From Escherichia coli O157:H7 (GTDB lineage Bacteria; Pseudomonadota; Gammaproteobacteria; Enterobacterales; Enterobacteriaceae): a DNA stretch of 64,000 bases. Position numbers: made by a program. The DNA lies in the NCBI RefSeq assembly GCF_013167455.1, contig NZ_CP038328.1; one strand, given 5' to 3'. This document shows positions 9,001-12,000 of this stretch, piece by piece (the stretch's first letter is position 1; the number at the start of each line of letters is the position of its first letter).

Positions 9001-12000
9001 GATCGGTGCCAGTTTGGCATCATCCAGCGCATCGATCAGCGGATGAATGTTGTAACCACCCTGCATAGTACCCAGCAGTTCGATGGCTTTTTCCGGAGTC
9101 AGCAGTGGGGATTTGGCTTCGCCTTTGGCGACAGCAGCCAGGAAGCCTGCTTTAACATAGGCGGCTTCATCGACGCCAGGAGGAACACGGTTGGTTAACA
9201 GATCTAACAGGAATTCTTCTTCGCCCGCGGGCGGGTTTTTCAGCAGCTCTACAAGCGCGGCCATTTGGTTTGCATCCAGGGGTTTGGGCGCAATCCCCTC
9301 AGCGGCACGCTCAGCTACGTGCTTACGGTATTCTTCTAGCACGACGGTTCTCCTCGCTCTCATTGTCATAGTGCGGCAGGCGATTCTCTTCACGCTCCTG
9401 TGAGACAGCAGTTTGTAGGGTAAATGCCCAGTACCGCAACGGGCAGAATAGCAGGATTTTGACGACGTGTTAATCTGTTTACAAAAAAGCAACATAAAAA
9501 AGTGGCTGAATCGTTAAGGATGGTCTAGAGATTGTTTCCCTCCGTAAAAACTTCGTTAATTCGCATGGTGATAATCACCTTTCTCAACGAATCCCAAGAT
9601 TAGTCAAAATTTAAACTACCGCCTCTTTATACTCGGATTCACAGCACCTGCGGGTGGCAGTTCGCCGACCATTGCGATTTCCTTGAGATCCGAATTATGA
9701 AAATGACTTTGCCGTTTAAACCCCATGTGCTGGCGCTAATTTGCAGTGCCGGGCTTTGTGCCGCCTCTGCCGGGCTATATATAAAAAGCCGCACAGTGGA
9801 AGCGCCTGTGGAAACGCAATCGACACAACTGGCTGTGTCTGACGCTGCCGCAGTTACGCTTCCTGCAACGGTTTCCGCACCTCCCGTAACACCCGCCGTC
9901 GTCAAATCCGCATTCAGCACTGCACAAATAGATCAATGGGTCGCGCCCGTCGCGCTGTATCCCGACGCCCTACTTTCGCAGGTGCTGATGGCATCAACCT
10001 ATCCGACAAACGTTGCTCAAGCAGTGCAATGGTCGCACGATAATCCACTTAAACAAGGCGATGCTGCTATTCAGGCGGTATCTGACCAGCCGTGGGACGC
10101 CAGCGTTAAATCACTGGTGGCCTTTCCACAATTGATGGCATTGATGGGCGAAAACCCGCAATGGGTGCAAAACCTGGGCGATGCTTTTCTGGCCCAGCCG
10201 CAGGACGTGATGGACTCGGTACAACGATTGCGGCAACTGGCACAACAAACCGGCTCGCTGAAGTCATCAACCGAACAGAAAGTTATTACCACAACGAAGA
10301 AAACTGTACCGGTAACACAGACAGTCACGGCTCCCGTCATACCATCCAATACCGTTTCAACTGCCAACCCTGTCATTACAGAGCCTGCAACAACCGTCAT
10401 TTCCATTGAGCCCGGCAATCCTGATGTGGTCTATATTCCCAACTACAACCCAACCGTGGTTTACGGGAACTGGGCCAATACTGCGTATCCGCCGGTTTAT
10501 CTGCCACCACCAGCCGGAGAACCGTTTGTTGACAGCTTTGTACGCGGATTCGGCTATAGCATGGGCGTTGCTACCACGTACGCACTATTCAGCAGCATCG
10601 ACTGGGATGACGACGATCATGACCATCATCATCATGACGATGATAATTATCATCACCACGATGGCGGTCATCGTGACGGTAATGGCTGGCAACATAACGG
10701 CGACAACATCAATATCGACGTCAACAATTTCAACCGTATCACCGGTGAGCATCTTACTGATAAGAATATGGCATGGCGGCACAATCCAAACTACCGTAAT
10801 GGTGTGCCCTATCATGATCAGGATATGGCAAAGCGGTTTCATCAAACTGATGTCAACGGCGGAATGAGTGCCACGCAGCTACCTGCTCCAACACGCGACA
10901 GCCAGCGTCAGGCGGCAGCAAGTCAGTTTCAGCAACGAACACACGCCGCCCCCGTCATTACACGAGATACCCAACGTCAGGCAGCGGCACAGCGGTTTAA
11001 TGAAGCTGAACACTATGGGAGCTATGACGACTTCCGCGACTTCAGCCGTCGCCAACCACTGACCCAGCAACAAAAGGACGCCGCTCGTCAGCGTTATCAG
11101 TCAGCTTCTCCTGAGCAGCGCCAGGCAGTTCACGAGAAAATGCAGACTAACCCGCAGAACCAGCAGCGAAGAGAGGCAGCGCGTGAGCGCATTCAGCCCG
11201 CCTCGCCTGAGCAGCGCCAGGCAGTCCGCGAGAAAATGCAGACTAACCCACAGATCCAGCAGCGAAGAGACGCAGCGCGTGAGCGTATTCAGTCAGCCTC
11301 GCCTGAGCAGCGCCAGGTGTTTAAGGAAAAAGTACAGCAGCGCCCACTGAACCAACAGCAACGTGATAACGCCCGCCAGCGTGTTCAATCAGCATCACCT
11401 GAACAACGTCAGGTTTTTCGGGAGAAAGTTCAGGAGAGCCGCCCACAACGTCTAAACGACAGTAACCATACTGCCAGGCTGAATAACGAGCAACGGTCAG
11501 CAGTACGCGAACGTCTCTCTGAGCGCGGAGCAAGGCGACTGGAAAGGTAAATTACAGGCGTAAAAAAAGCGGCGTGGTTAGCCGCTTTTTTAATTGCCGG
11601 ATGTTCCGGCAAACGAAAAATTACTTCTTCTTCGCTTTCGGGTTCGGCAGGTCAGTAATGCTACCTTCGAACACTTCTGCCGCCAGGCCCACAGACTCGT
11701 GCAGAGTCGGGTGCGCGTGGATGGTCAGTGCGATGTCTTCAGCATCACAACCCATTTCAATTGCCAGGCCGATTTCACCCAGCAGCTCGCCGCCGTTAGT
11801 ACCGACAATCGCACCACCGATCACACGGTGAGATTCTTTGTCGAAAATCAGCTTGGTCATACCGTCTGCGCAGTCGGAAGCGATAGCACGACCAGAAGCA
11901 GCCCACGGGAAGGTGGCGGTTTCATAGCTGATGCCTTTCTCTTTCGCTTCTTTCTCAGTCAGACCTACCCATGCAACTTCTGGTTCGGTATAGGCGATGG

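What the first reader, a model, noticed from the sequence alone, without database searches (positions are those of the whole stretch)
11101..11460. yacH carries about 3.7 tandem copies of a 96-bp (32-aa) repeat, two of them nearly identical
Units at 11101, 11197, 11293 and 11389 encode SASPEQRQ(A/V)…QQRR(E/D)AARERIQ. The first two copies are almost identical at the nucleotide level, implying recent duplication or concerted evolution; such arrays are prone to copy-number variation. YacH is an uncharacterised secreted DUF3300 protein, so the repeat region may be a variable, charged, probably disordered interaction module.
Basis: seen in the sequence. Interest (0 to 1): 0.4.

Follow-up and report, generated by a model that had tools for sequence, protein, structure and literature searches.

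The report
Variable 96-bp coding repeat in yacH
The E. coli envelope-stress gene yacH contains a real in-frame 96-bp (32-amino-acid) tandem repeat whose copy number differs between E. coli lineages (mostly two or three full copies). It is an ordinary protein-coding minisatellite in a poorly understood gene, not a new kind of element.

Summary
yacH (window 9697-11550, + strand, 617 aa, DUF3300) carries in-frame 96-bp units at 11101, 11197, 11293 and 11389, preceded by a 14-aa partial unit at 11059.

- **Identity:** U1 and U2 share 86/96 nt (90%), not near-identity. U1 or U2 against U3 is about 67%. U4 matches only over roughly its first 20 aa.
- **Significance:** identity at lag 96 is 75%, against at most 44% in 2000 codon shuffles.
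- **Copy number:** it varies. In two systematic samples (120 rows) of 5,425 complete E. coli genomes, about 52% have three full units and about 46% have two. A four-unit allele exists.
- **Exchange between units:** unit order differs between lineages (A-A-B-T, A-B-T, A'-B-T, A-A-A'-T, A-A'-T, A-A-A-B-T). This shows unequal exchange and gene conversion.
- **Stability:** the number is stable within lineages. All sampled O157-like genomes have three units, so this is not a contingency locus.
- **Selection:** the repeat is under purifying selection (dN/dS 0.14-0.25, like the DUF3300 domain).
- **Structure:** AlphaFold2 gives two short proline-capped helices per unit with no confident tertiary fold. 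Each unit adds about +3 net charge.

Function is not established. Published data link yacH to the Cpx and Rob regulons and to protamine sensitivity. Verdict: a new member of a known kind, of low to moderate interest.

The parts
9697..11550 (+). yacH coding sequence (617 aa plus stop)
   Evidence: ORF list. It is 100% identical to genes annotated yacH / 'DUF3300 domain-containing protein' in O157:H7-type genomes.
9721..9792 (+). N-terminal hydrophobic helix (aa 9-32), either a signal peptide or a signal anchor
   Evidence: AlphaFold2 predicts helix 9-32. The sequence is HVLALICSAGLCAASAGLYI. Cleavage and topology were not tested.
9919..10695 (+). DUF3300 domain (aa 75-333)
   Evidence: Pfam PF11737, E 5.3e-78, 262.1 bits. 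Only aa 71-190 are modelled with pLDDT 70-86.
10600..10680 (+). Asp/His-rich tract DWDDDDHDHHHHDDDNYHHHDGGHRDG (net charge about -10), the second indel hot spot in the gene
   Evidence: Composition. Indels of +8, +2 and -13 aa among E. coli alleles. TRF finds a period-21 repeat here in locus L023.
11059..11100 (+). Partial unit 0 (LTQQQKDAARQRYQ), matching the second half of a repeat unit
   Evidence: The 96-nt block ending here shares 45-51/96 nt and 8-12/32 aa with U1-U3, all in its last 14 residues. Predicted helix at aa 457-469.
11101..11196 (+). Repeat unit U1 (type A)
   Evidence: It is closest to L001_u1 (3 nt differences).
11197..11292 (+). Repeat unit U2 (type A)
   Evidence: It shares 86/96 nt with U1 and differs by 1-2 nt from the A units of L003 and L004.
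11293..11388 (+). Repeat unit U3 (type B)
   Evidence: It is identical to the B units of L003 and L004, and shares 64-65/96 nt with U1 and U2.
11389..11451 (+). Terminal degenerate unit U4 (type T), alike only over roughly its first 20 aa
   Evidence: 52/96 nt and 16/32 aa against U3. Predicted helix at aa 568-580.
11485..11526 (+). C-terminal NNEQRSAVRERLSE, a proline-less copy of the helix-1 motif (PEQRQAVREKMQ), conserved across Enterobacteriaceae orthologues
   Evidence: Direct sequence comparison gives 7/12 identities. The column consensus LNxEQRSAVRERLSE appears in alignment A1. Predicted helix at aa 597-616.

Best explanation
The feature is an in-frame coding minisatellite inside yacH.

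**What each unit encodes.** Each 96-bp unit encodes 32 aa that form two short amphipathic Arg/Gln-rich helices. Each helix starts at a proline cap (S-P-E-Q or N-P-Q). Each unit adds about +3 net charge.

**How the array evolves.** It changes by homologous, unequal exchange and gene conversion between units. This yields alleles with two, three or rarely four full units and shuffles variant sites between units. Every change keeps the reading frame. The number is stable within clonal lineages. The amino-acid sequence is kept by purifying selection. The repeat is therefore a functional, modular part of the protein and not junk or an on/off switch.

**Inferred function (not shown).** YacH is exported or anchored in the envelope. 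Its C-terminal tail would act as a flexible cationic string of helices, and repeat number would set its length and charge. The tail could bind anionic envelope surfaces or the protein's own acidic Asp/His tract. This would fit the published envelope-stress regulation and the cationic-peptide phenotype of yacH.
For: **Shown**
- The repeat is real and far beyond chance.
- All units are in frame.
- Gene lengths in two systematic samples of 5,425 genomes fall into classes of 1854, 1758, 1764, 1782 and 1815 bp. These are fully explained by a 96-bp gain or loss plus indels in the Asp/His tract.
- Six unit architectures were seen. The four-unit allele is confirmed at DNA level: TRF gives 3.7 copies at 95% matches.
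- A units do not sort by position across strains. WIN_u1 is nearest L001_u1, WIN_u2 is nearest the A units of L003/L004 (which share one lineage), and L004's two A units differ by 1 nt.
- Each Escherichia lineage has its own homogenised units.
- dN/dS is 0.14-0.25 in the repeat against 0.13-0.19 in DUF3300. The T-unit plus C-terminal segment (aa 565-617) shows 18 synonymous changes against 1 non-synonymous between WIN and L007.
- 15 of 32 unit positions are invariant across 21 distinct units, including P4, E5, Q6, R7, Q8, A27, R30 and Q32.
- Helices fall in register with the units in two AlphaFold2 runs.
- The repeat region has net charge +13 and the Asp/His tract -10.
- All nine sampled O157-like genomes have 1854 bp. 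No O157-like allele lacking 96 bp outranks them when a synthetic deletion allele is the query.

**Literature**
- yacH is CpxR-regulated, is repressed by protamine, and its deletion mutant survives protamine better (PMC9600279).
- yacH is down-regulated in a rob deletion mutant (PMC7537768).
- Its promoter is induced by ampicillin (PMC8865558).
Against: - The functional part is inference. No experiment or homology ties the tail to any ligand.
- AlphaFold2 confidence in the tail is modest: pLDDT 37-67 in the full-length run; mean 64 with pTM 0.22 in the tail-only run. Helicity itself needs experimental confirmation.
- Roughly equal frequencies of two- and three-unit alleles, and S. Typhimurium strains carrying a frameshifted yacH (PMC3391293, PMC10048834), suggest that unit number, and even the gene, may matter little for fitness.
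- Copy-number proportions come from 120 sampled rows, not a full census. Length classes were assigned to architectures from one to three inspected representatives each.
- Topology (periplasmic or not) was not tested.
Confidence: 0.8

Rival explanations
1. The repeat is a selectively neutral minisatellite in a dispensable, essentially unstructured tail. Repeat number and sequence have no functional consequence, and the variation reflects mutation and drift only.
For: - Two- and three-unit alleles are both common, about 46% and 52%.
- Many other in-frame slippage variants exist in the same tail (+45, +17, +4, +3 aa).
- There is no confident tertiary fold.
- The module is essentially restricted to Escherichia at sequence level: 15 hits in 1.84 billion representatives.
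- yacH is a pseudogene in several S. Typhimurium strains (PMC3391293, PMC10048834).
Against: - dN/dS is 0.14-0.25 in the repeat, as low as in the Pfam domain.
- The terminal unit plus C-terminal segment has 18 synonymous changes against 1 non-synonymous.
- 15 of 32 positions are invariant over 21 distinct units.
- All observed indels preserve the frame.
- Neutrality of unit number, as opposed to unit sequence, is not excluded.
Confidence: 0.3
2. The array is a contingency or phase-variable locus whose rapid expansion and contraction switches or tunes a surface protein within clonal populations.
For: Tandem arrays in envelope proteins are a classic substrate for this. Copy number differs between strains. 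Two A units in L004 differ by only 1 nt.
Against: - The unit is 96 bp, a multiple of three, so changes cannot switch the frame.
- The units in this window are diverged (10/96 nt and about 31/96 nt), which lowers slippage.
- All nine sampled O157-like genomes, six plus six rows with 1764-bp alleles of near-identical bit score, and all the K-12-derived strains sampled (MC4100, BW25113, J53) have lineage-constant lengths.
Confidence: 0.04
3. The tail is a divergent member of the periplasmic LTXXQ / CpxP-Spy-ZraP type or DUF3106 type helical proteins, and works as a chaperone-like or metal- or stress-sensing module.
For: - The repeated S/T-P-E-Q-R helix cap resembles the LTXXQ motif.
- There is a sub-threshold DUF3106 hit (E 0.035, 15 bits).
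- Distant phmmer hits P0135 and P0133 themselves touch DUF3106, Metal_resist and LTXXQ below threshold, and P0132 reaches DUF3106 at 24.8 bits, just above its 24.3 cut-off.
- yacH is CpxR-regulated (PMC9600279).
Against: - No LTXXQ or Metal_resist hit to the tail even at E up to 10.
- The DUF3106 score is well below the 24.3-bit cut-off.
- No PDB sequence hit below E 0.1 and no Foldseek hit at E <= 0.001.
- The shared motif is a generic helix N-cap.
Confidence: 0.07
4. The repeat is an assembly or annotation artefact, with a mis-collapsed or mis-expanded array in the source sequence.
For: Tandem repeats can be mis-assembled from short reads.
Against: - The whole array is under 400 bp, and its units differ by 10-50%, so it is easy to resolve.
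- The identical 1854-bp gene is present in independently finished genomes, with 100% identity in CDC#03-98, M7638 and Z1832.
- The reading frame stays open through the array.
Confidence: 0.01

Closest known systems
In-frame coding minisatellites (VNTRs) of enterobacterial envelope genes, such as those used in the Orsay 'ms' MLVA panels for E. coli and Shigella
   Same: Tandem units of tens of base pairs to about 100 bp, multiples of three, inside an ORF. Copy number differs between lineages and is stable enough to mark them. They evolve by unequal recombination and slippage.
   Different: This locus is not one of the published panel loci as far as I could check. The panel's only 96-bp locus, ms11, has primers that are absent from this window, and its allele range of 4.5-7 copies does not fit (PMC8215070). 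I found no paper describing the yacH repeat.
DUF3300 (PF11737) family, with orthologues in other Enterobacteriaceae
   Same: Same N-terminal hydrophobic segment, same DUF3300 domain, same Asp/His tract, and a Gln/Arg-rich C-terminal tail ending in a conserved ...EQR.A.RE.L... helix.
   Different: Other genera carry about 18-aa units (NPTADQQQRRDNAKSHLK in L016, NPTPQQQQRREAIKARHD in L020). These correspond to the second half of the Escherichia unit. The 32-aa higher-order unit is seen only in Escherichia (E. coli, E. albertii, divergent clades). A Bradyrhizobium member has an unrelated Gly/Arg/Asp-rich tail.
LTXXQ-motif periplasmic proteins (CpxP/Spy/ZraP, PF07813) and DUF3106 (PF11304)
   Same: Small or repeated periplasmic helices that begin with a (L/S)(T/S)PEQ-type N-cap and are rich in Arg, Glu and Gln. 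They have a regulatory link to Cpx envelope stress.
   Different: The tail does not reach either family's threshold: there is no LTXXQ hit, and DUF3106 scores 15 bits against a 24.3-bit cut-off. The resemblance is at motif level only.
Repeat-spacer envelope proteins: P0132 from this search (TM segment, then nine 33-aa LTPEQRQEIREGG... repeats, then an OmpA peptidoglycan-binding domain), and from my own knowledge the helical domain II of TolA
   Same: An N-terminal membrane anchor followed by a tandem array of short charged helical units in the periplasm. P0132's unit begins with the same TPEQRQ motif.
   Different: In YacH the array is at the C-terminal end and does not link two domains. No peptidoglycan-binding or partner-binding domain follows it. 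The TolA comparison comes from memory and was not tested.

Membership tests
DUF3300 (PF11737) | Match to the Pfam HMM above the gathering score | tested here: met
   262.1 bits against a cut-off of 25, E 5.3e-78, aa 75-333 covering profile positions 2-227 of 227.
Coding minisatellite / VNTR | Head-to-tail tandem copies beyond chance | tested here: met
   TRF: period 96, score 377. Lag-96 identity 0.747 against at most 0.436 in 2000 codon shuffles.
Coding minisatellite / VNTR | Unit length a multiple of three, with units in frame | tested here: met
   96 = 32 x 3. All unit starts are in the yacH frame.
Coding minisatellite / VNTR | Copy-number polymorphism among strains | tested here: met
   Two, three and four full units were seen. 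In 120 sampled rows, about 52% have three and about 46% have two.
Contingency (phase-variable) repeat locus | Repeat changes shift the reading frame or promoter spacing | tested here: not met
   The unit is a multiple of three and lies inside the ORF. All variant alleles inspected remain open.
Contingency (phase-variable) repeat locus | Copy number varies among very closely related isolates | tested here: not met
   Nine sampled O157-like genomes are all 1854 bp. No O157-like allele lacking 96 bp ranks first with a synthetic deletion query. The 1764-bp class is uniform. This rests on a sample, not a census.
LTXXQ / CpxP-Spy (PF07813) | Match to the family HMM | tested here: not met
   No hit to the tail at E up to 10.
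DUF3106 (PF11304) | Match to the family HMM above the gathering score | tested here: not met
   15 bits, E 0.035, against a cut-off of 24.3.
Coiled coil / single long alpha-helix | Uninterrupted helix of several heptads | tested here: not met
   Pro is invariant at unit position 4 and present in 20 of 21 units at position 18. Predicted helices are only 12-16 aa long. No dedicated coiled-coil predictor was available.
MLVA locus ms11 (96-bp unit, E. coli/Shigella panel) | Published primer sites flank the array | tested here: not met
   Neither primer matches the 64-kb window with up to 3 mismatches. Primers were taken from PMC8215070.
Exported / periplasmic protein | Functional signal peptide or signal anchor with the C-terminus outside the cytoplasm | not testable with these tools
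   There is only a hydrophobic N-terminal helix, aa 9-32. A Bradyrhizobium homologue has a classical signal peptide (MAVALILAMPMAAIA-Q).

The most novel reading that the evidence does not exclude
The roughly 50:50 split between two- and three-unit alleles may reflect long-term balancing or diversifying selection on an envelope protein. So may the unusually deep allelic divergence of yacH: 92-93% identity between O157 and B2 alleles, while the flanks are 97-99.7% identical. Under this reading, tail length and charge would tune sensitivity to host cationic antimicrobial peptides or the Cpx response.
Probability: 0.08. Interest if true: 0.5.

Novelty: new member of a known kind. Interest (0 to 1): 0.22.

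Why it matters
yacH belongs to the E. coli 'y-ome' of uncharacterised genes. It is regulated by the Cpx and Rob envelope-stress regulators, and deleting it alters survival of a cationic peptide.

Knowing that its C-terminal tail is a selected, modular, helix-forming cationic array with natural two-, three- and four-unit alleles gives ready-made variants for testing what the tail does. It also warns that yacH length differences between genomes are genuine alleles, not assembly errors or pseudogenes.

As a genetic phenomenon it is a routine coding minisatellite. It could serve as a lineage marker at best.

Tried and rejected
1. **MLVA locus ms11.** I recalled that the E. coli/Shigella MLVA panel has a 96-bp locus and checked whether it is this repeat. 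The primers (PMC8215070) are absent from the window and the allele sizes do not fit. Rejected.
2. **CpxP/Spy LTXXQ or DUF3106 membership of the tail.** There were only sub-threshold hits. Rejected as membership and kept as a motif-level analogy.
3. **PDB sequence search with full-length YacH.** Nothing below E 0.1.
4. **Foldseek of the full-length model against PDB.** No hit at E <= 0.001. The model is mostly low-confidence, so this is uninformative.
5. **Exhaustive phmmer of the tail (aa 437-617) against 1.84 billion representatives.** Only 15 hits came back, mostly E. coli fragments, so there is no wider family for the 32-aa unit.
6. **A 16-aa sub-period inside the unit.** There is no identity signal at a 16-aa lag. 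The two halves align only with a 3-residue indel (by eye), so this stays a suggestion. It is supported mainly by the 18-aa units of other genera.
7. **Rfam scan of 9000-12000.** Nothing lies within the repeat. The only sub-threshold hits sit on the terminator hairpin and the Asp/His tract.
8. **Promoter and terminator scan.** It gave only chance-level matches inside the gene.
9. **Exact census.** The search tool lists at most 60 rows, so I used two systematic 'spread' samples instead.
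Full report
**Identity of the locus.** The window region holds a 617-aa ORF at 9697-11550 on the + strand. It lies between acnB (minus strand, upstream) and lpdA (minus strand, convergent downstream). The ORF is 100% identical to genes annotated 'yacH: DUF3300 domain-containing protein' in O157:H7-type genomes. 5,425 of 5,426 complete E. coli genomes have a match. Pfam places DUF3300 (PF11737) at aa 75-333, at 262 bits against a cut-off of 25. NCBIfam has no model for it.

**Checking the observation.**
- Nucleotide identities are U1/U2 86/96, U1/U3 65/96, U2/U3 64/96 and U3/U4 52/96.
- U4 resembles the others only over roughly its first 20 residues.
- A 14-aa partial unit (LTQQQKDAARQRYQ, 11059-11100) precedes U1. 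The array therefore spans about 11059-11451, roughly four unit lengths.
- TRF detects the best-conserved 2.7 copies (11056-11317, period 96, 84% matches, score 377).
- Identity at lag 96 is 0.747. No lag exceeded 0.436 in 2000 codon shuffles.

The repeat is real. 'Nearly identical' overstates a 90% match.

**Copy-number variation.** I took two systematic samples down the ranking of 5,425 genomes, 60 rows each. One used the native gene as query and one used a synthetic allele lacking U1.
- Gene spans were 1854, 1758 (= -96), 1764, 1782 and 1815 bp, plus one very divergent gene (strain AST85).
- Inspecting representatives shows that every class is explained by 32 aa gained or lost in the array plus indels in the Asp/His tract at 10600-10680.
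- Counting by units, 31 + 32 rows have three full units and 28 + 27 have two.
- Ten rows of the second sample were assigned to the three-unit class from their alignment pattern and from the presence of the K-12 derivative J53.
- A 648-aa allele with four full units exists (P0011). It is confirmed in DNA on a 175-kb NCBI contig, where TRF gives 3.7 copies at 95% matches.

**Other in-frame variants in the same tail.** Protein clusters also show duplications of 45, 17, 4 and 3 aa.

**How the array evolves.** Typing the units by nucleotide distance gives A, A', B and a terminal T type. Six architectures were seen: A-A-B-T (O157, K-12/BL21), A-B-T, A'-B-T, A-A-A'-T, A-A'-T and A-A-A-B-T.
- Two different two-unit architectures, and a three-unit allele lacking B, require several independent exchange events.
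- A units do not group by position. The window's U1 is closest to L001_u1 (3 differences) and its U2 to the A units of L003/L004 (1-2 differences).
- In L004 the two A units differ by one nucleotide.
- Other Escherichia lineages (E. albertii L012, divergent clades L009 and L011) each carry their own homogenised pairs.

This is the signature of unequal homologous exchange and gene conversion.

**Not a recent duplication in this strain.** dS between U1 and U2 is about 0.36, above the whole-gene dS between phylogroup alleles (0.08-0.27).

**Stability within lineages.**
- All nine sampled O157-like genomes have 1854 bp.
- With the synthetic deletion allele as query, the top-ranked record is still an intact O157-like gene matched in two pieces.
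- The 1764-bp class recurs with near-identical bit scores.
- K-12 derivatives are uniform.

Together with a unit length that is a multiple of three, this rules out a phase-variable contingency locus.

**Selection.** Nei-Gojobori dN/dS in the repeat region is 0.14-0.25, indistinguishable from the DUF3300 domain at 0.13-0.19. The terminal unit plus C-terminus shows 18 synonymous changes against 1 non-synonymous between O157 and a B2-type allele. Across 21 distinct 32-aa units, 15 positions are invariant: P4, E5, Q6, R7, Q8, Q21, A27, R30 and Q32 among them, though six of these (P4-Q8 and R30) were fixed by the pattern used to collect the units. The protein sequence of the repeat is therefore constrained.

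**Structure.** Two AlphaFold2 runs were made.
- The full-length run used an 18-sequence alignment and gave mean pLDDT 44.8.
- The tail-only run used 11 sequences and gave mean pLDDT 64.1 with pTM 0.22.
- Both place helices in register with the units: aa 472-483/484 and 486-498/499 in U1, 504-515 and 518-532/533 in U2, 536-547 and 550/553-564/565 in U3, 568-580 in U4, and 597-616 at the C-terminus.
- Breaks fall at S-A-S-P and N-P.
- Local confidence reaches 65-79, but there is no confident tertiary arrangement.

Each unit is therefore best described as two short proline-capped helices. It is neither a long coiled coil nor demonstrably disordered.

**Charge.** The repeat region is 24% Gln and 17% Arg, with net charge +13. 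The Asp/His tract upstream has net charge -10.

**Relatives.** An exhaustive phmmer of the tail against 1.84 billion representatives found only 15 hits, mostly E. coli fragments. Orthologues in Klebsiella, Enterobacter, Raoultella, Kluyvera, Buttiauxella and Dryocola keep four features: the N-terminal segment, DUF3300, the Asp/His tract, and a Gln/Arg-rich tail ending in a conserved ...EQR.A.RE.L... helix. They carry about 18-aa NPT.QQQRR..AK... units instead of the 32-aa unit. The 32-aa unit thus looks like an Escherichia-specific higher-order repeat built from an older short motif.

**Motif-level resemblances.**
- The S/T-P-E-Q-R cap recurs in unrelated repeat proteins (P0132, P0133, P0135).
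- It gives sub-threshold hits to DUF3106.
- There is no LTXXQ hit to the tail, no PDB sequence relative and no Foldseek match.

**Function.** No function is established. Published data say the following.
- yacH is CpxR-regulated and repressed by protamine, and its deletion mutant survives protamine better (PMC9600279).
- It is down-regulated in a rob mutant (PMC7537768).
- Its promoter responds to ampicillin (PMC8865558).
- It is frameshifted in several S. Typhimurium strains by an 8-bp deletion in the Asp/His tract (PMC3391293, PMC10048834).

My inference, not shown, is that the tail is a flexible cationic helical string on an exported or anchored envelope protein, with repeat number setting its length and charge.

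**Literature check.** I found no paper describing the repeat itself. The 96-bp MLVA locus ms11 is a different locus.

**Verdict.** The finding is a genuine, polymorphic, selected coding minisatellite in a y-gene. It is a new member of a well-known kind, of low to moderate interest.

Noticed in passing
window 10600-10680: The Asp/His tract (DWDDDDHDHHHHDDDNYHHHDGGHRDG), encoded by GAY/CAY codons, is a second in-frame indel hot spot in yacH. E. coli alleles differ by +8, +2, -1, -2, -7 and -13 aa. The same tract carries the 8-bp frameshift deletion that inactivates yacH in several S. Typhimurium strains. It may bind metal. A Pfam ZrgA hit was only at chance level (E 1.6).
   Followed up: partly
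window 9697-11100 compared with 9397-9696 and 11621-11850: The non-repeat body of yacH is only 92-93% identical between O157 and B2-type alleles (dS 0.2-0.3). The upstream intergenic 300 bp is 98.7-99.7% identical and the lpdA 3' end is 97-99% identical. yacH is a local divergence hot spot with deep allele classes.
   Followed up: partly
window 9796-9918 (aa 34-74): The Ala/Val/Pro/Thr-rich linker after the N-terminal helix has dN/dS of 0.65-1.7 in pairwise comparisons. The counts are very small, 1-5 synonymous changes.
   Followed up: no
window 11562-11591: An A7-GCGGC-loop-GCCGC-T6 hairpin lies between the convergent yacH and lpdA genes. It folds at -21.2 kcal/mol, z = -3.7, and looks like a bidirectional intrinsic terminator. 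The consensus scan did not list it. Sub-threshold Rfam hits (AgrB, E 0.046) sit on it.
   Followed up: partly
rows H17 and H70: Two complete genomes have yacH spans of 1853 and 1757 bp, one base short of the in-frame classes. These may be frameshifted pseudogenes or homopolymer sequencing errors.
   Followed up: no
P0002 (662 aa; 19 contigs): This E. coli allele has a 45-aa in-frame duplication (APVITRDTQRQAAAQRFNEAEHYGSYDDFHDFSRRQPLTQQQKDA) just upstream of the 96-bp array, between two short direct repeats. It shows that the whole tail is prone to duplication.
   Followed up: no
L016 and L020 (orthologues from Enterobacteriaceae bacterium RIT691 and Enterobacter sp. ENT03): Their YacH tails carry two to three tandem 18-aa units (NPTADQQQRRDNAKSHLK and NPTPQQQQRREAIKARHD). 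These align with the second half of the Escherichia 32-aa unit.
   Followed up: partly
L022 (Bradyrhizobium iriomotense), ORF 2297-4015: This DUF3300 protein has a classical signal peptide. Its tail is unrelated, rich in Gly, Arg and Asp (GDRAGDRAGDRGG..., then GGGGFRGGGGG). It ends in a roughly 70-aa non-repetitive segment (DIALKHDIALLGHLGNGLGYYRFSY...).
   Followed up: no
P0132 and P0133: P0132 has a TM segment, nine 33-aa LTPEQRQEIREGGVPVDPQRL... repeats, and an OmpA domain. P0133 is 1,346 aa with about 30 repeats of 33-34 aa (LSPEQRAVVFAALKERLPGMIQS...). Both surfaced only through the shared SPEQR motif.
   Followed up: no
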